Virus record (IMG/VR): IMGVR_UViG_3300017917_003066
Direction: 5' to 3' (one strand)
DNA: 64,000 nt
From: an uncultured virus (IMG/VR IMGVR_UViG_3300017917_003066)
Taxonomy: Duplodnaviria > Heunggongvirae > Uroviricota > Caudoviricetes
Shown: piece by piece, positions 562-63,336 of the stretch
Layout of the letters: each line of letters begins with the position of its first letter
Numbering within the stretch: the stretch's first letter is position 1
Notes under the pieces: model-generated
The model's database searches: none
What the model saw: only the letters and a program-made list of their open reading frames with translations
What the model was told of the DNA's origin: nothing
Position numbers and translations under genes: made by a program

Positions 562-590
562 AAAAAAGACCCAGCTAAAAGCTGGGTCTT
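562..590 (-). terminator. Intrinsic terminator closing the RNA operon
   Basis: AAGACCCAGC-TTTTA-GCTGGGTCTT followed by a T-run on the minus strand. Confidence 0.85.
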
Positions 591-591
591 A

Positions 592-1505
592 AAACGCTGA
601 GATTACACGTTCAGTGTGACATCTTTGACTGGATTATTGTTTCCCAGTTTTATCCACCATCTTTTGAATGGTATCGTCACAGTGACGGTTAGTTAGACTA
701 ACCACTTCTTGAGTTACTGAATACTCTCCACTTACTCTGCTTACTCAACCCTCGCAGGCTGATTCGGGCTTCGACCCCCTATAAGTTTTTCGATGAAATC
801 ACATCAGCCTTTCGAGCATCAGTGGCTATGGACATCCCATAACTAAGTAGTCACCTTTCATCAGTAACTAGGTAACACTTTCGATTTTAGATTAAGTTTT
901 TACGCCAAATGTAAAATTTAAGTGCTGTAGATTATGTCGAAGTAGTGGTTACCTCTCAGCTCCCAAAGCTTTTGACCTCAAGAATACTGGACTACTCCGT
1001 GTGATGCCTCCATCACAACTCTTTAAGATATCTTCACCACGACTCACCTTGCGGTTTATCTACACCCTTGGTAGAGTGATTAGTGTTCATTAACAGCACC
1101 ACCTGTACAACGAATTGTCTTTCGACTTTGAGACACCTCTCAAGTTGAAACTCGCAATTATAATGACTGGTGGGTCACCATTTCTTGCAAAATTTCTACA
1201 GGTTATTCTTATTGCTCTTCCGAACTCAACTGAACAATCTACACTTGCCCAGTCACTAATCCATTTCCCTACGGAGTTACCCTCAGTACTTCAGGCTTAG
1301 TGATATCCTGCTTGCTTACTCGACCTCAGTTACCCAAGACGCAGACACAATTTGCAGTTGTGTCCACTTTATCCCCCTTTCAAGGTTTATTTAACGACTA
1401 TAAGCGGCCGTTGCCTTCACATCAACCGAAGTTGATGATCCAACAATATCATTTAAGGCTCAATAGACCATCTGTCTACCAACTTTCGTCTCTTGTGAGA
1501 GAACC
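592..1505 (-). ncRNA. Large structured ncRNA, GOLLD-like (ends approximate)
   Basis: ~0.9 kb with higher GC than its flanks and no credible ORF; many hairpins (CATCAAC-UUCG-GTTGATG at 1420-1437, a GCAA-capped stem ~1344-1364, stems ~1000-1016 and ~1120-1150); lies downstream of tRNAs and upstream of a terminator; size and tRNA/phage context fit GOLLD. Confidence 0.6.
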
Positions 1506-1510
1506 TTTTA

Positions 1511-1545
1511 TTTCAAAGAACTTACTTTATATCCGACGTTTCGGA
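1511..1545 (-). promoter_or_regulatory. boxB-like hairpin plus boxA-like antitermination element
   Basis: Minus strand TCCGA-AACG-TCGGA hairpin, then GTTCTTTGAAA. Confidence 0.6.
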
Positions 1546-1580
1546 AAAGTTTAGAAATTTTTTTCAAATTTCTTTTTTAG

Positions 1581-1667
1581 TAGCGGGAGCAGGATTCGAA
1601 CCTGACGTGTCACTTGCGCAACCCTGGGTTATGAGCCCAGTGAGTTTGACCTCTACTCTACCCCGCG
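1581..1667 (-). tRNA. tRNA-Met(CAT), initiator type, with long variable arm
   Basis: CGCGGGG acceptor with unpaired C1; anticodon arm CTGGG-CTCATAA-CCCAG (three G-C pairs); GGTTCGAATCC T-arm. Confidence 0.85.
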
Positions 1668-1676
1668 ATATATTTG

Positions 1677-1772
1677 TAGTCGGTAGTGGATTCGAACCAC
1701 TGTCTGATATCGGAAAAGATATCTGTCCTGTTCACTCGCGCGATTGTGAGTTTGCCACTAGACGAACCGGCC
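1677..1772 (-). tRNA. Atypical tRNA-Glu-like gene: 8-nt anticodon loop, ~22-nt D-loop insertion
   Basis: GGCCGGTTCGTCTAGTGG...AGGAC; GATAT-CTTTTCCG-ATATC; AGTGG-TTCGAAT-CCACT. Confidence 0.7.
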
Positions 1773-1782
1773 ATATTTTTTG

Positions 1783-1946
1783 TAGCCCGTAGAGGATTCG
1801 AACACTCTGTTTTCTAACCGAAAAGTTAGACGTCCTAAACATCAGGTCATACTTATTTTGGGTGACGCTCCCAATGGTTACCAACTACTGGATAAGTATT
1901 TTTTTGACCGTCTGTTTCTCTTGCGAGTCCTGTAGACGAACGGGCC
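1783..1946 (-). tRNA. Atypical tRNA-Glu-like gene: 8-nt anticodon loop, ~90-nt structured D-loop insertion
   Basis: GGCCCGT/ACGGGCT acceptor; TCTAA-CTTTTCGG-TTAGA anticodon arm; T-arm with one bulged T. Confidence 0.65.
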
Positions 1947-1956
1947 ATATTTTTTG

Positions 1957-2030
1957 TAGTCGGTAGAGGATTCGAACCTCTGTCTGATATCGGAAAAGAT
2001 ATCCGTCCTGAGCCACTAGACGAACCGACC
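1957..2030 (-). tRNA. tRNA-Glu-like gene with 8-nt anticodon loop
   Basis: GGTCGGT/ACCGACT acceptor; GATAT-CTTTTCCG-ATATC; AGAGG-TTCGAAT-CCTCT; no encoded CCA. Confidence 0.8.
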
Positions 2031-2047: not shown

Positions 2048-2243
2048 CAAAGATAAGAATAATTTTTTAATTCACCAAATCTTTTTTTATTTTTTTTCAG
2101 ATTTTTTATTTCTGATTTGTCTTACAAAGATAAGTAAACTTTTTTAATCTACCAAATCTTTTTTTATTTTTTATTTCAAAGAACTTATCAGACGTTTCTG
2201 ATTTGTGAATACAAAGATATAACAAGTTTTCAATTTCACCAAA
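2048..2243 (-). promoter_or_regulatory. Three tandem Bacteroidota-type housekeeping promoters plus a second boxB/boxA-like element
   Basis: TATCTTTG at 2048-2055, 2125-2132 and 2212-2219, each 20 nt from a TTTG; hairpin 2187-2202 and GTTCTTTGAAA at 2174-2184. Confidence 0.8.
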
Positions 2244-8762: not shown

Positions 8763-10420
8763 GAAAAATAAGTTTAATAACATTTTTACTATTGTTTGTT
8801 GTCAAATCGGCAACATCACAAACCTTTAACTATTCAGGTTATGTTTATAATTCTAATGGTAATGGTTTACAAAATATACCTATAAAGGTTTATAAGAGAA
8901 CAACTCCTAACTTAACAGGATTTACATCTCAAACAAATTATAATGGTCACTCTTATTATAGATCAACAACATCTGCCTTCTGGTCAGACGCAAAGTTGGC
9001 TTGTGAATCTATGGGTGGACACTTAGCTACCGTCTCTAATGCAGCTGAAAACAATTTCTTATATACAACTTGGCCCTCTGGATGGATAGGTTATTATCAA
9101 GATGTTGCTGGTGCTTTTTATGGAGAACCAAATGCTGGTTGGAGATGGACACAACCATATGTAACTAGCGGTCAATATAATAACTATGATGTTAGTTCTT
9201 ACACATCAGGTTCTACATTAACAGATATTAAATCGAGTAAAAATGCTACTTTGTATAATTCACCTTCTTTAACAACTGGTGGTGGTAAGTACTTAACATT
9301 TAATGGTACAAATCAATATGGTATAACTAGTGATCTTTCTTCTGGATTTGGTAGTTCAGAAGTTATAAGTCTTTTAATGTGGGTTTACCCTACTGGCAAT
9401 GGTGTTATTTTATCAGAATTAGGAATAGCTAGTCCTTCTTCAGGTTGGCATGAATCAGTGTTTGAAATAACTGGAAGTAACACATTAAGAATAGGACTTT
9501 GGAATGGAACAGGTATAACTCAATTAAGCACATCTATAACACTAAACACATGGAACTTAATAGGACTAACATATAATGGAACAACAATGACTGGTTACAA
9601 AAACGGTACTAGTATTGGTAGTGTTAATTTTAACAGAGAAGCACCTCATCTAAATGGAAATGGTGAGCATTTTGCTTTTGGTTTAAGCGATTTAACGAAT
9701 ATGGGTTCTGGTGCATATGGTAATTTTAGATTAGGATATTTTCAAGTATACACAACATCTCTAACAACAGATGAGATGAATAGAAACTATATGTCTACTG
9801 CTTGGAGATTTGGAGTTTATCCATATTCTGCTTGGAACGGAGGTGAACCAAATAATGCGGGTGGTGAAAACTATATTCAATTTGTTGGAGGTGGACTTTG
9901 GAATGATCTACCAAATAATGTATCATTACCTTATGTTTTAGAATTTGACTATGTTGTAACTTATTCATCTTGGGTACTAGATACAACGGTTTATACAAAC
10001 TCATCTGGTTATTACACAGTATCAAGACCAACAAATCCTTCAATAGAAAGGTATATTGAAATATCATCTTTGAATCTACCATTACTAACATCTATGGATG
10101 CTCAATCACCGTTGCCAATCACTCTTGGATTAAATCCAATAACATCAAAGTCTTACTATTTATATGACGTAAATTTTGATGGTAGAATAAATGTTACTGA
10201 TTCTTATTTTATACACGGTAGAATTAGTGGTCGATTTTCAAATTGGTTAAATTCATATCCTAATTATAGAATATTTACACAAGCTCAGTACAATATTATA
10301 AACTCAAGTAGTTTAGATTTAAGACTATCATATCCAGGTGTTCAGACATATACTATAAACTCACCTGTTAGTGGGCAGTCTATGAATTTTTACATTTTTA
10401 GAACAGGATATGTAAATTAA
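8759..10420 (+). CDS. Secreted C-type lectin / LamG-like / dockerin-like protein
   Basis: WSDAKLACESMGGHLA, WIG, GEPNN, WNDL; LamG-like WNLIGLTYNG; YDVNFDGRINVTD. Confidence 0.8.
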   Translation: MRKISLITFLLLFVVKSATSQTFNYSGYVYNSNGNGLQNIPIKVYKRTTPNLTGFTSQTNYNGHSYYRSTTSAFWSDAKLACESMGGHLATVSNAAENNFLYTTWPSGWIGYYQDVAGAFYGEPNAGWRWTQPYVTSGQYNNYDVSSYTSGSTLTDIKSSKNATLYNSPSLTTGGGKYLTFNGTNQYGITSDLSSGFGSSEVISLLMWVYPTGNGVILSELGIASPSSGWHESVFEITGSNTLRIGLWNGTGITQLSTSITLNTWNLIGLTYNGTTMTGYKNGTSIGSVNFNREAPHLNGNGEHFAFGLSDLTNMGSGAYGNFRLGYFQVYTTSLTTDEMNRNYMSTAWRFGVYPYSAWNGGEPNNAGGENYIQFVGGGLWNDLPNNVSLPYVLEFDYVVTYSSWVLDTTVYTNSSGYYTVSRPTNPSIERYIEISSLNLPLLTSMDAQSPLPITLGLNPITSKSYYLYDVNFDGRINVTDSYFIHGRISGRFSNWLNSYPNYRIFTQAQYNIINSSSLDLRLSYPGVQTYTINSPVSGQSMNFYIFRTGYVN

Positions 10421-22842: not shown

Positions 22843-24633
22843 TTATTTTATTTGTATTTTCATTTTTGTACCTACCTCATTCTTTTCACAAGAAACTTTA
22901 AATCCGTGTTCTTTTAATATAGCAACACAGATATTAAGACCAAGACCAGTACCTGTTTCTTTTTGTCCTTCTTTTCTAGTATATGGTTGTGATAGATATT
23001 CAAAGTCAGCTTGAGTCATTCCTCTACCATTATCTTGTATAGCAATATGTGACTCATCTTCCATAAAGATAGCAACTAACTTAGCTTCACTATCATTATA
23101 TTTTAAACCATTACGAATTAAATTATCAATTGCGGTACAGAAAAGTGCCTGATTAACCTCAATTGTTGGTAAATGGTCAATTGCTACTTGACTAGAATAT
23201 GATGTATTTGAAAGATAATCTAATAAAATAACTCTTAAATCATGAGATTCTTTGTTTAACTCAGCATCTTTTTTAACTAAATTAGTAAATTCATAAACAC
23301 CCTTGTAAACTTTTTGAGTATGTTGAAGACCTTCTTTAATCATTTTAAGAGGTGATTCTATCTTTAACTCTTTAATAACCTCTGGTGTTAATCTTCTTTC
23401 TAACGAACTTATACCTCTTGGCATATAAGTATTAATACCTGAGTGCATATCATGTCTGAGAATTTTAGCAGCATGTTCTAAGTAAGTATTCTTTTTATTA
23501 ATTTCTTCTATATTATTTTGAATCTCTTGAGTACTCACAATAACATCTGTCACATCATAACCAATAGACATAAAACCAGACAACTCATCATATTCATCAA
23601 AGTCTGCTTTTATATAAGTATCTATATAATATAAATCTCCATACTTATCCTTGTTGGTAACAACTTCATGCCATATTTGTTTTTCTTTTATTGTTGTTCT
23701 GTACATATCTTTCCAGAAAATTTTAGAGTGTTCACCTGAACTAACGACATTTAAAGACTTTCCCTTTAAATCCCTAAGTCTCCAATTAGAAACCTCTTCG
23801 AATCTTTTATTCACATAAATAATATTACTTTCTTTATCTGTTTTTGTAACTATAACTGATGAGTCAACAAACTTATCAAAGTCTAGTAAACTCTTACTTA
23901 CTTTATTTCCTTCTTTAACCGAAAAAGCAAAAGAGTAAAGAGAAGATAACATCTGAGCAAAGTCTACCTCACAGTCACTCCAACCTCTTAATGTTAAACT
24001 CTCAATACAAATAACACCTATTACACTACCTCTGTATATAATAGGAACATCTAACATAGATTTAATACCTAAAGGTTTAAGATAGCCTTCAGTGAAACAA
24101 GATGTTGCTGGGTGTGTTTCCGCATTTTCGGCTATTATAATTGGATCTACTAATAAATGGTCAAAATAACCAGTAAAATCTTTTTTAAATAACTCAATAT
24201 CTGAATACCAAGAATCCTCAGCTTTTATATAAAGTTGTTGACAAATTATAGATGTTTTATCTTTGTTATATAACCAAATTGAACATCTATCAGCACCAAT
24301 AGATTGTGTTACTTCTTTTGTTAATAGCTTACCACCTTCTGATATTCTACCTTCATAGAATAGAGTATTATGTGATTGTGATATAATAACATCATTTAAT
24401 TTGTTTAAATAAGTGTTTCTTTTTTGAACTTCTTTAGATTTTTTTAAAAACTCCATAACTACAACAATGAAAAAAGGAACAAAACCTAAAAAACAACCAT
24501 AACCAAGATAGCCAATTTTTTCAGAGTATTTAATATACTCAAATACAAGTGCAGATTGTAGGATAAAATAAAATAACATTATTAATCCTGACATTACTAA
24601 AGATATTATATACTTAAATGACATTGTTTTCAT
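22843..24633 (-). CDS. Membrane sensor histidine kinase (2 TM, GAF, PAS, HATPase)
   Basis: GAF (RCSIWLY...SMLDVPI), PAS (IIYVNKRF), H-box LRHDMH, NLIRNG, DNGRGM, GTGLGL. Confidence 0.92.
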   Translation of the reverse strand: MKTMSFKYIISLVMSGLIMLFYFILQSALVFEYIKYSEKIGYLGYGCFLGFVPFFIVVVMEFLKKSKEVQKRNTYLNKLNDVIISQSHNTLFYEGRISEGGKLLTKEVTQSIGADRCSIWLYNKDKTSIICQQLYIKAEDSWYSDIELFKKDFTGYFDHLLVDPIIIAENAETHPATSCFTEGYLKPLGIKSMLDVPIIYRGSVIGVICIESLTLRGWSDCEVDFAQMLSSLYSFAFSVKEGNKVSKSLLDFDKFVDSSVIVTKTDKESNIIYVNKRFEEVSNWRLRDLKGKSLNVVSSGEHSKIFWKDMYRTTIKEKQIWHEVVTNKDKYGDLYYIDTYIKADFDEYDELSGFMSIGYDVTDVIVSTQEIQNNIEEINKKNTYLEHAAKILRHDMHSGINTYMPRGISSLERRLTPEVIKELKIESPLKMIKEGLQHTQKVYKGVYEFTNLVKKDAELNKESHDLRVILLDYLSNTSYSSQVAIDHLPTIEVNQALFCTAIDNLIRNGLKYNDSEAKLVAIFMEDESHIAIQDNGRGMTQADFEYLSQPYTRKEGQKETGTGLGLNICVAILKEHGFKVSCEKNEVGTKMKIQIK

Positions 24634-26609: not shown

Positions 26610-27452
26610 TTATGCTTCGTCTAAAACAACTTCGGACTTTTCTTGTAGCATCATTTCATAAGCTCTAGCAAGTCTAGTCATTCCGATTCCACCACCAAAT
26701 CTTGGAAAGAAATCATAGTTTAAGAAAACTTCAAGTTCAGCCTCCACTCTTTCTCTACCAAAAAGTTCAAAAAGTTTTTCTGAATATTTACCATCTTCAA
26801 TAGTGTAGAACATTTCTCTCATCTTTTCAACGTCACAGCTTCTTTCGGCTGATCCAATTGTTTCTTGACCGTAAAGAATAACATCAACCTTGTTGAATAT
26901 TTCACCATCTTTGTTTTTCATATTCCAGAAAGGATTAGTTCTTCTTGGAAAATATTGTAATGAAACAACTGAACTTTTTTCTTTCCACATTCTTGACTCG
27001 TGTTCATCTTCTAATATTTGAACTCCACCATATTCTTGACAAACATCATCATATTTTACCTCAACTGGTGAATTAAATCCTAAATGTTCTAAAAGTTCTG
27101 ACTCTAATTGTAGTAATTCTTTCATTCCACCTTTTGATTCAAATTCAAACATAGGGAAAATCAATTCGTGTCTACCAGGAATTGGATTTTTTTCTTGACG
27201 ATAAGATGTTGAAATACAAAAACACCCAGGCCATTCTGGATTTCTCAAAAGTTCGTGTTCTAACCACATTTGTCCTGTTTGTGGAAGGGGCCAAACTTCA
27301 CCACTGTAGTTAAATGTAGTGATTGAGTGTGGATTTTCGCAAGCTGCTAAGATTGATAATCTTGATTGTGTTGGGACTTCAATGAAGCCTTTGTTTAAAA
27401 AAAATTCTCGCATTTTTTGTACGAGAGCATGATAAGTTAAAGTGTTTCGCAT
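26610..27452 (-). CDS. Class IIb aaRS catalytic-domain paralog (AsnRS-like / asparagine synthetase-like)
   Basis: GFIEV, SYRQE...RH..FPMFEFE, GGGIGMTRL; no N-terminal anticodon-binding OB domain (280 aa). Confidence 0.8.
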   Translation of the reverse strand: MRNTLTYHALVQKMREFFLNKGFIEVPTQSRLSILAACENPHSITTFNYSGEVWPLPQTGQMWLEHELLRNPEWPGCFCISTSYRQEKNPIPGRHELIFPMFEFESKGGMKELLQLESELLEHLGFNSPVEVKYDDVCQEYGGVQILEDEHESRMWKEKSSVVSLQYFPRRTNPFWNMKNKDGEIFNKVDVILYGQETIGSAERSCDVEKMREMFYTIEDGKYSEKLFELFGRERVEAELEVFLNYDFFPRFGGGIGMTRLARAYEMMLQEKSEVVLDEA

Positions 27453-51991: not shown

Positions 51992-52648
51992 TTATTTTCT
52001 CTTTGTGATGATTTCATCAATCATTCCGTACTTCTTAGCATCAACAGCTGTCATCCAATAATCTCTATCACCGTCTTTACTAACTCTATCATATGATTGT
52101 CCAGTTCTATCTGATATTATTTCATAAAGTTCTTTCTTTAAAGAGTTAATTTCTTTTGCTTCAATTTCCATATCAGAGGCTTGTTGCATCCAACCACCGA
52201 ATCCTAATGGTTGGTGAATCATGGTTCTACTTCTTTTAAGTGCTTTCCTTTTACCCTTGGTACCTGCGCACAAAATAACAGCACCCATAGAAGCCGCCAA
52301 TCCTGTATTAATTGTTACGATATCAGGAGTTACATATTCCATAACATCCAAAAGACCTAAACCTGAATAAACAGAACCTCCTGGACTATCAATATAAATT
52401 TTGATATCTTCATCACTTTCAGTTTCTAAATAAAGAAGTTGAGCTTTTATTATAGAACAAACATCTGAGTCTATTTCATCTGAAAGAAAGATGATTCTTT
52501 CATCTAATAGTTTTGTGAATATATCAACAGACACGCCGTTTGATTCCATGATATGAGTTGTATAATTTTTCTTTTGTAATTTTCTGAAGTAATCATCAAA
52601 TTTGGAGCCACCTAGACTTTGAATTGCATATTTTCTAAAATCGTTCAT
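51992..52648 (-). CDS. clpP: Clp protease proteolytic subunit
   Basis: SPGGSV, AASMG, MIHQP, DRDYWM. Confidence 0.95.
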   Translation of the reverse strand: MNDFRKYAIQSLGGSKFDDYFRKLQKKNYTTHIMESNGVSVDIFTKLLDERIIFLSDEIDSDVCSIIKAQLLYLETESDEDIKIYIDSPGGSVYSGLGLLDVMEYVTPDIVTINTGLAASMGAVILCAGTKGKRKALKRSRTMIHQPLGFGGWMQQASDMEIEAKEINSLKKELYEIISDRTGQSYDRVSKDGDRDYWMTAVDAKKYGMIDEIITKRK

Positions 52649-56671: not shown

Positions 56672-57865
56672 ATGGACAAATTATATGTAAATGGTTTAAT
56701 TCAGAACATTCTTAACAAAGAATTTTCTAATAAACATAAGAGAAGAACTGTTACCTACGAAGATAGGGTGAATATGGCTTGTCCTTATTGTGGTGACTCT
56801 CATAGAAATCAACATGCAAAGAGAGGCAATCTTTATTACAATAGACTTATATACATATGTTTTAACTGTGATAAAAAAACAAATCTTGATAGATTATGCA
56901 AAGACTTCAATGAAGTCTTAGATCCTGATAAAAAGTTAGAAATGATTGAACACTTGAATAGTGTTATGACTTATTCAGACTTTGAAGGTGATTTTGTTGA
57001 TGCTAAATTTGAAGACTTAATTGACTTGTCAGAATTAGAAAGAGTTTTTAGTCAAGACTTAACACCTATATCAGATTTTAGACCTATACAAGTTAATGGA
57101 GGTGTTTACAAGTATTTATGTGGTCGTGGAATTGGACCAGAACTACATAAAAATATTTATCAAGCTAAATACTGGAAAAACGAAGACGAACATGAGTGGA
57201 TAATAGCCATGTTAAATAGGAGAGGTGATAAAGTATTAGGCATGCAGATCAGAAATCTAAAAGAAGGTAGAAGACGTATGTTTAAGATATACAACTATGA
57301 GAATCTTTTAGAATGGGTTAATATAGGAAAAGATGTTGAAGATTATGATATGAGTCAATTGGTTATTTATAATAAACTTTCATATTATTTTAATATCTTG
57401 AATGTTAACTTTATGGATACTATTACAGTTTTCGAAGGTTACTTAGACTCTTTATTTTTTCCAAATTCAATAGGATTAGTAGGTGTTAATACTGACTATA
57501 GGTTTTTAGAAAGTAATAATCTCGATTTAAGATATTTCTTTGATAATGATGAGGCAGGCTATAAGAAGTCGGAAGAAAAAATAAAAGATGGCTTTCCTGT
57601 TTTTCTATGGAAGAAACTATTTGAGGACATTGTTAGCAAAAAGAAAACTGACGATCCTTATAGATTATTACATAGAATAAGCAAAGTAAAAGATATTAAT
57701 AAATTATCAGAACTTGTTCCTAATCCTTATAAAAAGTTAGAACTGGATAACTTTTTTAGCTGTGATGTTTTAGACCTAAAATGGATTCCTAAGTTTAGAA
57801 GAAAAAGAAAATCTGATGAAGAAACTGACTATAATAAAAAGTTCGATTCTTTCAAGAGTCTTTAG
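56672..57865 (+). CDS. DNA primase (T4 gp61-like)
   Basis: CPYCGDS...CFNC zinc finger; TOPRIM FEGYLD, FDND. Confidence 0.88.
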   Translation: MDKLYVNGLIQNILNKEFSNKHKRRTVTYEDRVNMACPYCGDSHRNQHAKRGNLYYNRLIYICFNCDKKTNLDRLCKDFNEVLDPDKKLEMIEHLNSVMTYSDFEGDFVDAKFEDLIDLSELERVFSQDLTPISDFRPIQVNGGVYKYLCGRGIGPELHKNIYQAKYWKNEDEHEWIIAMLNRRGDKVLGMQIRNLKEGRRRMFKIYNYENLLEWVNIGKDVEDYDMSQLVIYNKLSYYFNILNVNFMDTITVFEGYLDSLFFPNSIGLVGVNTDYRFLESNNLDLRYFFDNDEAGYKKSEEKIKDGFPVFLWKKLFEDIVSKKKTDDPYRLLHRISKVKDINKLSELVPNPYKKLELDNFFSCDVLDLKWIPKFRRKRKSDEETDYNKKFDSFKSL

Positions 57866-58326
57866 ATAAATATTCTTTTACTGACTCTTTTCTTAATAGA
57901 CATATAAGTTTTGAAGTCCATGTTTCCTCTTTCATTGTTACAATCTTTACAACAAACTACTAAGTTAACTTGACAATTATTACCACCTTCTGATATTGGT
58001 ATTATATGGTCAGCTGTTGCATTTTCTTTATTTAATTCAGAATCACAATATATGCAATTTACTCCTTCATTTTCATCTAAGAACTCTTTTGCGAATCCAC
58101 TTGTTCTTCTTTTAACATTTTTACCGTTATATTTCAAACCGATGACAACGAAGTCCTCCATTATCTTATATTTTTTTCTAAAAATCTCACACGATTTGTA
58201 TTTTCTATTTAGCCTTACCATCATTTTAATTAGTAATCTCCACTTAAAGTAGGTTTCTTTATCTACCGATAAGAAGTGTGGATGCTCGGCTTTGTATATA
58301 AATTTTAATATTTTAATCAACCTCAT
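57862..58326 (-). CDS. HNH endonuclease
   Basis: CIYC, DHIIP..GG, NLV..CKDCN. Confidence 0.88.
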   Translation of the reverse strand: MRLIKILKFIYKAEHPHFLSVDKETYFKWRLLIKMMVRLNRKYKSCEIFRKKYKIMEDFVVIGLKYNGKNVKRRTSGFAKEFLDENEGVNCIYCDSELNKENATADHIIPISEGGNNCQVNLVVCCKDCNNERGNMDFKTYMSIKKRVSKRIFI

Positions 58327-62808: not shown

Positions 62809-63336
62809 CTATTTTTTATTATTAGACTTAATCATAACTAACCATCTACCACCTTCTAGCTTAGGTAATGATTCTGCTACTCCGAATCCATCTAAGTTAC
62901 TAATGTATTTCAGAATAGTTAATTCACCTCTTTCGGGATTGGCTTTTTGTCTTCCTTTTAATTGAAGAACACATTTAATTTTATTACCTTCTTTTAGAAA
63001 TTCAATACTTTTTTTAACTTTTGTATTTAGATCATTATCTGATATTTCGGGACTAAGCTGAATTTCTTTTATTATAGATTTTATTGAGTTTTTCTTTTTC
63101 TCTTTTTCAGCCTTTTCAAAGTTATAAATAAACTTTTTATAATCTTCTATTTTTACAATAGGTGGATTTTGTGACTCATTAATTAGAATTAAGTCTAATC
63201 CTTCTGATTCTGCAATTTTTGAGGCTTCGTATGAACTCATTAATCTAGGTTCATCGTAAAAGCCGATTAGTCTAACTTGTGGAAAGCGAACTTCGCTGTT
63301 AATCTTGTGTTTCTGTCTATTTCTATTAGATTTCAT
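62809..63336 (-). CDS. infC: Translation initiation factor IF-3
   Basis: IN..VR...VRLI, LDLILI...PPIVKI.DY, KEIQL...I..ND, KGRQ. Confidence 0.92.
   Translation of the reverse strand: MKSNRNRQKHKINSEVRFPQVRLIGFYDEPRLMSSYEASKIAESEGLDLILINESQNPPIVKIEDYKKFIYNFEKAEKEKKKNSIKSIIKEIQLSPEISDNDLNTKVKKSIEFLKEGNKIKCVLQLKGRQKANPERGELTILKYISNLDGFGVAESLPKLEGGRWLVMIKSNNKK

What the first reader, a model, noticed from the sequence alone, without database searches (positions are those of the whole stretch)
1677..2030. Three tRNA-Glu-derived genes with 8-nt anticodon loops and D-loop insertions of 0, ~22 and ~90 nt
Seen: all three keep acceptor, D and T stems but have 8-nt loops (CUUUUCCG twice, CUUUUCGG once). 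The anticodon stems differ (GATAT/ATATC vs TCTAA/TTAGA) yet stay paired, which argues for selection rather than decay. The 90-nt insertion folds into nested helices (CTC-GCAA-GAG; GGTCA/TGACC; ATACTTAT/ATAAGTAT). Known: 8-nt loops can cause +1 frameshift (quadruplet) decoding, and host anticodon nucleases target tRNAs during infection. Inference: these are frameshift-suppressor tRNAs, nuclease-resistant or decoy tRNAs, or non-translational tRNA scaffolds.
Basis: partly seen in the sequence, partly recalled or inferred. Interest (0 to 1): 0.85.

Follow-up and report, generated by a model that had tools for sequence, protein, structure and literature searches.

The report
Glutamate-tRNA look-alikes beside phage GOLLD RNA
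A giant bacterial virus carries three conserved look-alikes of glutamate tRNA, with a closed-up anticodon loop and extra hairpins at the elbow, made together with its cage-forming GOLLD RNA, so they most likely imitate a tRNA instead of reading codons.

Summary
On the minus strand, 2030-1677 holds three tRNA-Glu-derived elements of 74, 164 and 96 nt with 8-nt loops CUUUUCCG, CUUUUCGG and CUUUUCCG.

The three elements and a tRNA-fMet-like element (1667-1581) lie directly upstream of a GOLLD RNA (Rfam 275.9 bits, 999-594). Three Bacteroidota-type promoter motifs precede the array and the only terminator follows GOLLD.

The window is a huge phage related to LR745206 and LR756502. Related huge phages and metagenome contigs hold the same family.
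- Acceptor, anticodon and T stems covary: 95.8% of cells paired, 14 of 22 pairs changed on both sides.
- The first and last loop bases also covary (C-G, U-A, G-C), so the arm is a 6-bp stem with a UUUUCN hexaloop.
- Of 85 distinct members, 43 carry D-loop hairpins and 33 need a bulge in the T stem.
- The phages also encode ordinary tRNA-Glu.
- In-frame GAA-A is not avoided.
- In every GOLLD-bearing genome or contig examined the copies flank GOLLD on its strand.

Best reading: non-decoding tRNA-Glu mimics released by tRNA-processing enzymes. Their target is unknown. The same loop also occurs in a chromosomal tRNA-Glu paralogue of Pirellulales. Earlier notes of this scan reported other tRNA mimics beside GOLLD on other DNA.

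The parts
2212..2243 (-). Promoter-like motif 1 (TTTG-N-TAnnTTTG, Bacteroidota type)
   Evidence: Pattern match. Three of the 12 matches in the 64-kb window lie within 200 nt upstream of the array. The consensus is recalled from knowledge of Bacteroides promoters and was not tested here.
2125..2156 (-). Promoter-like motif 2
   Evidence: The core 'TTACTTATCTTTGTAAGACA' also stands upstream of the homologous element in L001.
2048..2079 (-). Promoter-like motif 3, nearest the first tRNA-like element
1957..2030 (-). W1: tRNA-Glu mimic, 74 nt, no insertion. Stem GAUAU/AUAUC plus a C-G closing pair, hexaloop UUUUCC (8-nt loop at 1998-1991)
   Evidence: ARAGORN; Rfam tRNA 49.9 bits; model R1 90.4 bits (W1 is one of the sequences R1 was built from).
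1783..1946 (-). W2: tRNA-Glu mimic, 164 nt. The D-loop is replaced by a GNRA hairpin (CUC-GCAA-GAG, 1927-1918) and a long helix (AAACA 1917-1913 with UGUUU 1840-1836) that encloses nested helices. Loop CUUUUCGG at 1825-1818. One bulged U in the T stem
   Evidence: R1 79.3 bits. The orthologue in L069 has the same ends and a different, still paired, middle.
1677..1772 (-). W3: tRNA-Glu mimic, 96 nt, with a 22-nt hairpin inserted in the D-loop. Loop CUUUUCCG at 1718-1711. C3xA70 mismatch in the acceptor stem
   Evidence: R1 79.1 bits.
1581..1667 (-). tRNA-fMet-like element (anticodon CAU, GGG/CCC next to the loop, C1 unpaired) with an added 5-bp variable arm capped by a GCAA tetraloop
   Evidence: ARAGORN; Rfam tRNA 41.6 bits; fold.
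1000..1580 (-). Presumed variable 5' domain of the GOLLD RNA
   Evidence: Non-coding. It is alignable to the region between tRNA-Met and the GOLLD 3' domain in LR745206 and LR756502. Rfam's model covers only the 3' domain. The boundaries are inferred.
594..999 (-). GOLLD RNA, conserved 3' domain
   Evidence: Rfam RF02032, 275.9 bits (gathering score 150), E 9.6e-79, model positions 1-416 of 416.
566..590 (-). Intrinsic terminator (11-bp stem followed by a U run) just after GOLLD
   Evidence: It is the only terminator-like site on the minus strand between 2500 and 300.

Best explanation
The three elements are non-decoding mimics of tRNA-Glu that form part of the phage's GOLLD RNA operon.

Shown:
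- They descend from tRNA-Glu.
- They keep the acceptor, D, T and elbow features that make an RNA tRNA-shaped.
- They keep the sequence elements that GluRS reads in E. coli tRNA-Glu: U11-A24, U13-G22 with A46, a 4-nt variable loop, and UUC.
- Their anticodon arm is rebuilt into a 6-bp stem closed by a covarying pair over a UUUUCN hexaloop.
- Many copies add a hairpin at D-loop position 20, and many have a bulged base in the T stem.
- They stand on GOLLD's strand at fixed places next to it.

Inferred:
- One transcript runs from the three host-type promoters through W1, W2, W3 and the fMet-like element into GOLLD, and ends at the terminator.
- RNase P and the 3' tRNA-processing enzymes cut at the tRNA-shaped borders. 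This frees GOLLD with defined ends and frees stable mimics of 74-164 nt.
- The mimics do not enter translation. They engage a factor that recognises tRNA-Glu, either GluRS or a host nuclease or modification enzyme directed at tRNA-Glu, and act as competitor or decoy.
- The elbow hairpins, which are GNRA-capped in W2 and in the fMet-like element, may dock them to the GOLLD cage.
For: Family and selection:
- 28 distinct members aligned: 95.8% of cells paired, 14 of 22 pairs changed on both sides, 0 of 500 shuffles as high.
- Among those 28, the loop-closing pair is C-G in 25, U-A in 2 and G-C in 1, and never unpaired.
- Among 85 distinct members it is C-G 70, U-A 8, G-C 4, A-U 3. The close relatives L291 and L323 differ only by U-A against G-C.

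Unlike working tRNAs:
- D-loop of 15 nt or more in 43 of 85 members, up to 144 nt.
- A T-stem bulge is needed in 33 of 85.
- The base after UUC is G, A or C.
- LR745206, LR756502 and LR756504 also hold ordinary 7-nt-loop tRNA-Glu UUC and CUC genes.

Link to GOLLD:
- Copies flank GOLLD in the window, W01, W02, G002-G007 and the contig of L156.
- A genome-wide model search puts all 3 copies of W01, both copies of W02 and both copies of G004 at the GOLLD locus.
- 20 of 49 metagenome loci with a member hold GOLLD in the DNA fetched, always on the same strand.
- Downstream copies start 8-14 nt after GOLLD's last model position.

One transcription unit: the promoter motifs and the single terminator.

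Sequence-level constraint at the GluRS identity positions: U11-A24 in 27 of 28 members, U13-G22 in 28 of 28, and an invariant A at the A46 position. The identity set is taken from passages of PMC9976931.

The W2-type elbow hairpin covaries: CUC-GCAA-GAG against CCC-GUAA-GGG.
Against: - No expression, processing or charging data could be obtained.
- The clean copies (W1; L002b; L063a) differ from a working tRNA only in the anticodon loop, and tRNAs with 8-nt loops can decode triplets (yeast mitochondrial tRNA-Thr1; abstract of PMC3113583).
- Two complete relatives without GOLLD still hold 10 copies (W03, 636 kb) and 3 copies (G001, 288 kb). A near-identical loop also sits in a stand-alone chromosomal tRNA-Glu paralogue of Pirellulales. 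The function is therefore not tied to GOLLD.
- No convincing base-pairing partner for the hexaloop was found in GOLLD.
- The loop statistics are biased, because the collection scans required TTTTC.
- The promoter consensus is recalled, not tested.
Confidence: 0.5

Rival explanations
1. They are working, GluRS-charged tRNA-Glu isoacceptors that still read GAA and GAG despite the enlarged loop. One version: spare tRNAs that a host nuclease aimed at the tRNA-Glu anticodon loop cannot cut. Another version: donors of activated glutamate for a non-ribosomal enzyme.
For: - W1 is a well-formed tRNA apart from the loop (Rfam 49.9 bits).
- The GluRS identity positions are kept.
- The relatives W01, W02, W03, G001 and G004 encode proteins of the GluRS/GlnRS family.
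- A clean chromosomal paralogue with the same loop is kept in 10 Pirellulales species, downstream of clpP1-clpP2 in the 4 genomes whose flanks were scanned.
- 8-nt loops can decode triplets (PMC3113583 abstract; passage of PMC7609411).
Against: - A Watson-Crick pair closing the loop, T-stem bulges in 33 of 85 members and D-loops of up to 144 nt are not expected in ribosomal substrates.
- The position 3' of the anticodon is C in W1 and W3.
- Ordinary tRNA-Glu genes are present in several copies.
- No glutamyl-tRNA reductase was found in 5 related phages. No lanthipeptide dehydratase was found either, but that search had no positive control.
Confidence: 0.2
2. They are only processing punctuation: tRNA-shaped cleavage signals that let RNase P and the 3' enzymes cut GOLLD out of its precursor. 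The released pieces have no role of their own.
For: - A tRNA or a mimic immediately precedes the GOLLD 5' domain in 8 of 8 mapped loci.
- A mimic starts 8-14 nt after GOLLD's end in 6 of those 8 loci and in 6 metagenome loci.
- mascRNA, cut from MALAT1, is a known precedent (passage of PMC9976931).
Against: - Punctuation needs no invariant hexaloop, no invariant D stem and no three tandem copies.
- In the window the fMet-like element alone borders GOLLD.
- GOLLD-less phages keep 3-10 copies, and Pirellulales keep a stand-alone copy.
Confidence: 0.15
3. They are +1 frameshift (quadruplet) decoders that read GAAA with the anticodon UUUC.
For: - The loop equals a tRNA-Glu loop (CUUUCAN) with one extra U, as in classical suppressors with an extra anticodon-loop base. 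The examples SufB2 and SufJ were seen only as abstracts in the listing.
- ARAGORN reads 'tttc'.
Against: - In-frame GAA is followed by A in 34.1% of 830 cases, against 36.7% for all 17,014 codons, so the window's ORFs do not avoid the site.
- The loop ends pair and covary.
- The position 3' of the anticodon is not held as a purine.
- T-stem bulges and large elbow insertions are common.
- No split gene needing such a shift was noticed, but no systematic search was made.
Confidence: 0.05
4. They are decaying tRNA pseudogenes or assembly artefacts (a homopolymer error in the U run).
For: - Fake 8-nt loops from T-run or G-run length errors do occur in some metagenome contigs that look like long-read assemblies (BNJ* records).
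- W3 has an acceptor mismatch.
Against: - The same design recurs in independent assemblies: public huge-phage genome records, IMG/VR contigs and cultured Pirellulales.
- Compensatory changes occur in every stem, including the closing pair.
Confidence: 0.02

Closest known systems
tRNAs next to or inside GOLLD RNA (Rfam RF02032). Passages read in Kretsch et al., bioRxiv 10.1101/2024.12.08.627333, and in the RNA Biology 2026 review PMC12990946. Morgado et al. 2020 was seen only as a citation
   Same: GOLLD lies near tRNA islands. The env-38 GOLLD lies downstream of a Met-tRNA, and tRNAs sometimes sit in its linker. Here too a CAU tRNA or tRNA-like element directly precedes GOLLD.
   Different: The passages read speak of ordinary phage tRNAs or of an embedded tRNA-Phe. 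They do not describe a conserved tRNA-Glu-derived family with a closed hexaloop, elbow insertions and fixed flanking positions. A search for 'GOLLD' with 'tRNA-like' found 2 papers, neither on this.
mascRNA, the tRNA-like piece cut from the MALAT1 long non-coding RNA (passage in PMC9976931)
   Same: A tRNA-shaped module at the border of a large non-coding RNA is cut out by tRNA-processing enzymes. It does not decode, and it acts on a synthetase (GlnRS).
   Different: mascRNA is eukaryotic, lacks a conserved anticodon loop and is not aminoacylated. The phage mimics keep a conserved UUC-bearing loop and the GluRS identity core. Processing was not shown here.
+1 frameshift suppressor tRNAs with an extra anticodon-loop base (SufB2, SufJ; abstracts seen in the listing)
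   Same: Formally an 8-nt anticodon loop produced by one extra base in the anticodon run.
   Different: As recalled, suppressors keep an open loop, a purine 3' of the anticodon and a normal body. Here the loop ends pair, that position varies, and bulges and insertions are frequent.
Yeast mitochondrial tRNA-Thr1 with an 8-nt loop (PMC3113583 abstract; passage of PMC7609411)
   Same: A natural, conserved tRNA with an enlarged anticodon loop.
   Different: It decodes triplets (CUN as Thr) and replaces a missing tRNA. Here ordinary tRNA-Glu genes coexist.
Non-proteinogenic tRNAs and regulatory tRNA-like RNAs: Staphylococcus tRNA-Gly for cell-wall synthesis and Bacillus cereus 'tRNA-Other' (both recalled, not looked up here)
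   Same: tRNA paralogues kept out of translation by changes in the T stem or the loop while staying recognisable to a synthetase.
   Different: Different amino acid and different changes; no link to a giant RNA.
Earlier notes of this scan on other DNA: tRNA-Phe mimic with elbow hairpin (e1-6052874) and Asn-type mimic with a rod-like anticodon arm (e1-5402896), both beside GOLLD
   Same: The same theme: a tRNA look-alike with a disabled anticodon loop, an elbow hairpin in one case, next to GOLLD.
   Different: Different parent tRNAs and different phages. Those are unchecked AI notes, and their loci were not examined here.

Membership tests
Canonical elongator tRNA-Glu (Rfam RF00005) | Cloverleaf with 7-bp acceptor, 4-bp D, 5-bp anticodon and 5-bp T stems, plus the elbow bases G18 G19 and TTCRA | tested here: met
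   all four helices are supported by covariation; GG and GTTCGA are invariant. W1 scores 49.9 bits on RF00005. W2 and W3 score nothing there at E up to 1.
Canonical elongator tRNA-Glu (Rfam RF00005) | Open 7-nt anticodon loop with U33, a 3-base anticodon and a purine at position 37 | tested here: not met
   There are 8 nt between the 5-bp stem strands. The outer two bases pair and covary. The base after UUC is C in W1 and W3.
Canonical elongator tRNA-Glu (Rfam RF00005) | D-loop of roughly 7-11 nt and an uninterrupted T stem | tested here: not met
   W2 and W3 carry insertions of 89 and 22 nt, and W2 has a bulged U. In the family, 43 of 85 have D-loops of 15 nt or more and 33 of 85 need a bulge. 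W1 alone meets this feature.
Canonical elongator tRNA-Glu (Rfam RF00005) | GluRS identity set of E. coli tRNA-Glu: U11-A24, U13-G22:A46, no residue 47, U34 U35 C36 A37 | tested here: inconclusive
   The core elements are kept: 27 of 28, 28 of 28, invariant A, and a 4-nt variable loop in most members. UUC is kept but displaced in a closed loop, and A37 is not kept. Charging cannot be tested with these tools.
+1 frameshift suppressor tRNA | One extra base in an otherwise open anticodon loop on a normal tRNA body | tested here: not met
   The extra base is present, but the loop ends form a covarying pair and the body is often altered.
+1 frameshift suppressor tRNA | Quadruplet decoding (here of GAAA) takes place | not testable with these tools
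   Indirect evidence only: no avoidance of in-frame GAA-A, 34.1% against 36.7%.
GOLLD RNA (RF02032), the neighbour | Match to the conserved 3' domain above Rfam's gathering score | tested here: met
   275.9 bits against a gathering score of 150, full model length, window 999-594.
tRNA-like processing module of a long non-coding RNA (mascRNA type) | tRNA-shaped element directly bordering the large RNA on the same strand | tested here: met
   same strand in all cases. Downstream copies start 8-14 nt after GOLLD, and an upstream tRNA or mimic abuts the 5' domain.
tRNA-like processing module of a long non-coding RNA (mascRNA type) | Cleavage by RNase P and RNase Z at its borders | not testable with these tools

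The most novel reading that the evidence does not exclude
A class of tRNA-Glu that GluRS can still recognise but the ribosome cannot use, defined by a paired-shut UUUUCN anticodon loop, exists both in Pirellulales chromosomes and in huge phages. In the phages it has been wired to the GOLLD nanocage. The mimics are cut from the GOLLD precursor and, through GNRA-capped elbow hairpins, ride on or in the cage. GOLLD would then be a carrier that displays many tRNA-Glu decoys to titrate a host tRNA-Glu-binding factor (GluRS or a defence nuclease) during infection. This would give GOLLD its first concrete cargo.
Probability: 0.15. Interest if true: 0.85.

Novelty: new variant of a known kind. Interest (0 to 1): 0.68.

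Why it matters
GOLLD was recently shown to assemble into a 14-mer RNA cage whose function and cargo are unknown. Its authors suggest tRNAs as possible contents (10.1101/2024.12.08.627333, passages read).

This work defines a conserved family of disabled tRNA-Glu look-alikes at fixed positions around GOLLD in huge Bacteroidota phages, together with GNRA-capped extra arms. That gives a concrete, testable candidate for what the cage is made with or carries.

Processing, GluRS charging, EF-Tu exclusion and co-assembly can all be tested in vitro from sequence alone.

The same closed UUUUCN loop in a chromosomal tRNA-Glu paralogue of culturable Pirellulales offers a genetic system for asking what such a tRNA does.

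The finding also warns annotators: these genes are either missed or called 'tRNA-???', or miscalled as tRNA-Pro, Thr, Asn or Lys.

Tried and rejected
- Whole-genome search of the window's own genome: none is held.
- Kissing-loop partner for the hexaloop in GOLLD: I aligned 8 GOLLD loci and listed every site with 6 or more complementary bases, allowing wobble. There were dozens of purine-rich sites per locus, and no column tracked the UAUUCA and UUUUCN variants convincingly. I rejected this as uninformative.
- The first collection pattern (loop plus T-loop only) was too loose: 120 loci, mostly coding DNA or other tRNAs. I replaced it with patterns that include the D arm.
- Glutamate-tRNA-using enzymes in 5 related phages: glutamyl-tRNA reductase PF05201 gave 0 of 5, with the control genomes positive. 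Lanthipeptide dehydratase PF04738 gave 0 of 5, but nothing rang in the controls either, so that answer shows little.
- Thermodynamic support: the z-scores of W2 (-1.73), W3 (-0.53) and the fMet-like element (-1.44) are unremarkable. The case rests on covariation.
- Sampling 301 genomes of the Pirellulales order with a stricter pattern found only the query genome. The chromosomal paralogue is therefore confined to a small subclade: 10 species in the scan of all genome contigs.
- Literature searches for this family found no description: 'GOLLD' + 'tRNA', anticodon loop/8-nt/phage/tRNA-like, 'GOLLD' + 'tRNA-like', Planctomycetes/glutamyl-tRNA and enlarged-anticodon-loop phrases. Supplements of Al-Shayeb et al. 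2020 (tRNA tables) were not opened and may list these genes.
Full report
**What is there.** On the minus strand, the window reads 2030 to 1677 as three tandem elements.
- W1 (2030-1957, 74 nt) is a tRNA-Glu-type cloverleaf. ARAGORN calls it a tRNA with anticodon 'tttc', and Rfam's tRNA model scores it at 49.9 bits.
- W2 (1946-1783, 164 nt) and W3 (1772-1677, 96 nt) have the same acceptor, D, anticodon and T arms but carry 89 and 22 extra bases in the D-loop. Both programs therefore miss them.
- The loops are CUUUUCCG, CUUUUCGG and CUUUUCCG.
- Two details were not noted: W3 has a C3xA70 mismatch, and W2 needs a bulged U in its T stem.

- The next element downstream (1667-1581) is a tRNA-fMet-like gene with anticodon CAU, GGG/CCC beside the loop and an unpaired C1. 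It has an added 5-bp variable arm capped by GCAA.
- After a non-coding stretch of about 580 nt comes the conserved 3' domain of a GOLLD RNA at 999-594. It scores 275.9 bits on Rfam RF02032 against a gathering score of 150, over the full model length.
- The only terminator-like site on this strand between 2500 and 300 is at 590-566, right after GOLLD.
- Three matches to a Bacteroidota-type promoter motif stand at 2079-2048, 2156-2125 and 2243-2212. The consensus is recalled from memory.
- The simplest reading is one transcription unit: promoters, W1, W2, W3, fMet-like element, GOLLD, terminator.

**What the window is.**
- Its ORFs include a baseplate hub, endolysins, a phage-type helicase and a family B DNA polymerase. 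They also include IF3, ClpP, adenylosuccinate synthetase and a protein with a type IX secretion sorting tail.
- Both the RNA locus and a distant 8-kb stretch match only five 'uncultured phage' records of 634-735 kb, at 66-79% identity.
- Al-Shayeb et al. 2020 (PMC7162821, passages read) state that their five genomes above 634 kb fall in the Mahaphage clade and are predicted to infect Bacteroidetes. By their lengths, the matching records look like these genomes.

**The family.**
- LR745206 (W01) has the design three times around its GOLLD, and LR756502 (W02) twice.
- Pattern scans of IMG/VR, model R1 and a metagenome scan added many more members.
- On 28 distinct members aligned by MAFFT, the cloverleaf I specified is paired in 95.8% of cells, against 75.2% in shuffles and at most 47.7% when partners are slid. 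Fourteen of 22 pairs show changes on both sides, and 0 of 500 shuffles reach the observed values. Related sequences can beat shuffles without any structure, but the slid controls and the many pair types argue for real selection.
- The D stem, by contrast, hardly varies: U11-A24 in 27 of 28 members and U13-G22 in 28 of 28. The A at the A46 position is invariant.
- These are the core identity elements of E. coli tRNA-Glu for GluRS (PMC9976931, passage).

**The anticodon arm.**
- The first and last bases of the '8-nt loop' are C and G in 25 of 28 members, U and A in 2, and G and C in 1. They are never unpaired.
- In the metagenome scan these two positions were left free. Among 85 distinct phage-type members overall, the pair is C-G 70, U-A 8, G-C 4 and A-U 3.
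- The close relatives L291 and L323 share stem and acceptor but have U-A against G-C.
- The arm is therefore a 6-bp stem with a hexaloop: UUUUCG 48, UUUUCA 26, UUUUCC 5, UAUUCA 5 and UAUUCG 1. The loop counts are biased, because my scans required TTTTC or CTTTTCNG.
- Compared with the phages' ordinary tRNA-Glu (loop UUUUCAA or CUUUCAA), the UUC and its 5' U are kept, while the loop is pinched shut.

**Other departures from working tRNAs.**
- Of the 85 members, 43 have D-loops of 15 nt or more, up to 144 nt. Thirty-three reach a 5-bp T stem only with a one-base bulge, which is U in 30 and C in 3.
- In the W2 subfamily the insertion has a fixed plan. After the GG of the D-loop comes a 3-bp hairpin with a GNRA loop; CUC-GCAA-GAG covaries with CCC-GUAA-GGG. 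Then a helix AAACA/UGUUU encloses anything from a short hairpin to about 60 nt.
- The orthologue in L069 has the same ends as W2 and a different, still paired, middle.

**Not a substitute for tRNA-Glu, and probably not a GAAA reader.**
- W01, W02 and W03 hold 61, 50 and 45 matches to the Rfam tRNA model. ARAGORN finds ordinary 7-nt-loop tRNA-Glu UUC genes in the tRNA islands of all three, and tRNA-Glu CUC in W01 and W02.
- In 49 long ORFs of the window, A follows 34.1% of 830 in-frame GAA codons. The figure is 36.7% for all 17,014 codons and 34.8% after AAA. The phage makes no effort to avoid GAAA, which an efficient quadruplet reader expressed from three promoters would punish.

**Link to GOLLD.**
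- GOLLD is present, and flanked by members on its own strand, in the window, W01, W02, G002 to G007 and the contig of L156. G007 duplicates G002 at this locus.
- Genome-wide, model R1 finds all 3 high-scoring copies of W01, both of W02 and both of G004 at the GOLLD locus.
- In 8 mapped loci a tRNA-Met or a member abuts the GOLLD 5' domain. In 6 of them a member starts 8-14 nt after GOLLD's last model position.
- Among 49 metagenome loci with a member, 20 hold GOLLD within the DNA fetched, always on the same strand, and 6 of them show the same 9-14-nt spacing. Many of the other 29 loci are short contigs, but several with about 1.5 kb on each side have no GOLLD.
- The link is not obligatory. The 636-kb W03 and the complete 288-kb G001 have no GOLLD, yet they hold 10 and 3 copies.

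**A wider class.**
- The same pattern found 82 places in one genome per species of bacteria and archaea.
- By the CM search and by reading each match, ten are tRNA-shaped with this loop. All ten are Pirellulales: Novipirellula, Rhodopirellula baltica, Stieleria, Rubripirellula and six MAGs.
- Eight further matches, mostly in Patescibacteria, look like tRNA-Glu with an insertion after UUUUC. The remaining matches were coding or other DNA.
- The Pirellulales gene is a stand-alone gene of 73-76 nt with covarying anticodon stems and the loop CUUUUC(A/C/G)G. It lies downstream of clpP1-clpP2 in the 4 genomes whose flanks I scanned.
- It coexists with an ordinary tRNA-Glu UUC in the three genomes searched.
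- It was found in only 1 of 301 sampled genomes of the order, and that one was the query itself.
- A few unrelated phage contigs hold similar genes within tRNA arrays (L151, L153, L159, L163).
- A caution: some metagenome assemblies show homopolymer length errors that fake enlarged loops. Those have unpaired loop ends and were left out of the counts.

**How it most likely works.**
- Shown: descent from tRNA-Glu; selection on the tRNA shape, on the GluRS core elements and on a closed UUC-bearing hexaloop; frequent elbow hairpins and T-stem bulges; a fixed position beside GOLLD.
- Inferred: co-transcription with GOLLD and cleavage by RNase P and the 3' enzymes. The base before every copy is U, and no CCA is encoded, as in the phage's ordinary tRNAs. 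The released mimics stay out of translation and occupy a tRNA-Glu-binding factor.
- The GNRA caps on W2's elbow hairpin and on the fMet-like variable arm suggest docking to a helix or receptor, possibly in the GOLLD cage. GOLLD's authors picture linked tRNAs inside the cage (10.1101/2024.12.08.627333, passages). This step is speculation.
- I put 0.5 on 'non-decoding mimic processed from the GOLLD operon'. The rivals are a still-decoding or glutamate-donating special tRNA (0.2), bare punctuation (0.15), a GAAA frameshifter (0.05) and decay or artefact (0.02).

**Novelty.**
- The neighbourhood of GOLLD and tRNAs, a Met-tRNA upstream of GOLLD and tRNAs inside its linker are already in print.
- I found no description of this tRNA-Glu-derived family, of its closed hexaloop, or of the Pirellulales paralogue in the searches.
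- Earlier AI notes of this scan report analogous Phe-type and Asn-type mimics beside GOLLD on other DNA. I did not check those loci.
- I file the finding as a new variant of a known kind.

Noticed in passing
window 594-1580 (-): A full GOLLD RNA (Rfam 3' domain 999-594, 275.9 bits, plus a 5' domain of about 580 nt), followed by a strong terminator at 590-566.
   Followed up: yes
window 1581-1667 (-): Initiator-like tRNA (CAU, GGG/CCC next to the loop, unpaired C1) with an added 5-bp variable arm capped by a GCAA tetraloop. The orthologous position in related phages holds an ordinary 73-77-nt tRNA-Met.
   Followed up: partly
L124 1294-1559; L126 556-645 and 899-985; L127 1462-1543; L132 762-847 (tRNA islands of LR745206 and LR756502): Beside normal copies, the huge phages carry Lys, Asn, Gln, Glu and Arg tRNAs of 82-90 nt. 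In the Lys, Asn, Gln and Glu copies the variable region holds a short hairpin, often GNRA-capped (GAGA, GAAA), although these tRNAs normally have short variable loops.
   Followed up: no
L164, L165, L187, L189, L193, L202, L203, L211, L218, L231 (about position 1594-1667 of each): A stand-alone chromosomal tRNA-Glu paralogue in Pirellulales with the same CUUUUCNG loop. It lies downstream of clpP1-clpP2 in the 4 genomes scanned and coexists with an ordinary tRNA-Glu UUC.
   Followed up: partly
L001 2818-2901; L028 1364-1442; L063 1543-1626: A conserved spacer of about 80 nt between the two mimics downstream of GOLLD. It has a shared 5' motif (AGUUUUCGUAGUGGUUAACUU) and three hairpins whose stems differ between phages but stay paired. 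It is not present in the window.
   Followed up: no
L001 1268-1355; L028 54-139; L063 205-291: Another tRNA-like gene of 86-88 nt upstream of the GOLLD locus. In the L001 copy, which was read, the anticodon loop is 3 nt and the variable region is long. ARAGORN gives nonsense anticodons for all three, and the L001 copy has a weak tmRNA-clan hit. It is absent from the window.
   Followed up: no
LR756504 (W03): 9960-10171, 136123-136467, 308513-308601, 402173-402580, 461091-461310: This GOLLD-less 636-kb relative holds 10 copies of the mimic at 5 loci, mostly in pairs, one with a D-loop insertion of about 110 nt. In one locus (L136, identical to L010 of G001) a tRNA-Met and an unassigned stretch of about 150 nt lie between the pair, where GOLLD lies in the relatives.
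   Followed up: partly
L260, L320, L330 (BNJ* metagenome contigs): Duplicated tRNA arrays differ only by homopolymer length in anticodon loops (T or G runs). This looks like long-read assembly error and yields false 8-nt or 6-nt loops.
   Followed up: partly
L170, L178, L185, L199, L214, L223, L225, L234 (mostly Patescibacteria MAGs): tRNA-Glu-like 5' halves whose sequence after UUUUC continues into a GC-rich structured insertion, possibly introns in the anticodon loop.
   Followed up: no
W01 23461-24189; G004 128579-129307: Short open frames (290-305 aa) of the GluRS/GlnRS catalytic family in two GOLLD-bearing phages, in addition to frames of about 500 and 540 aa. The short form was not found in W02, W03 or G001.
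   Followed up: no
window 26610-27452 (-), 62809-63336 (-), 51992-52648 (-), 57862-58326 (-): The phage window also encodes a truncated class II aaRS-like protein (280 aa), IF3, ClpP and an HNH endonuclease. The last lies several kb from a DNA polymerase B gene that matches only part of the Pfam model and may be fragmentary.
   Followed up: no
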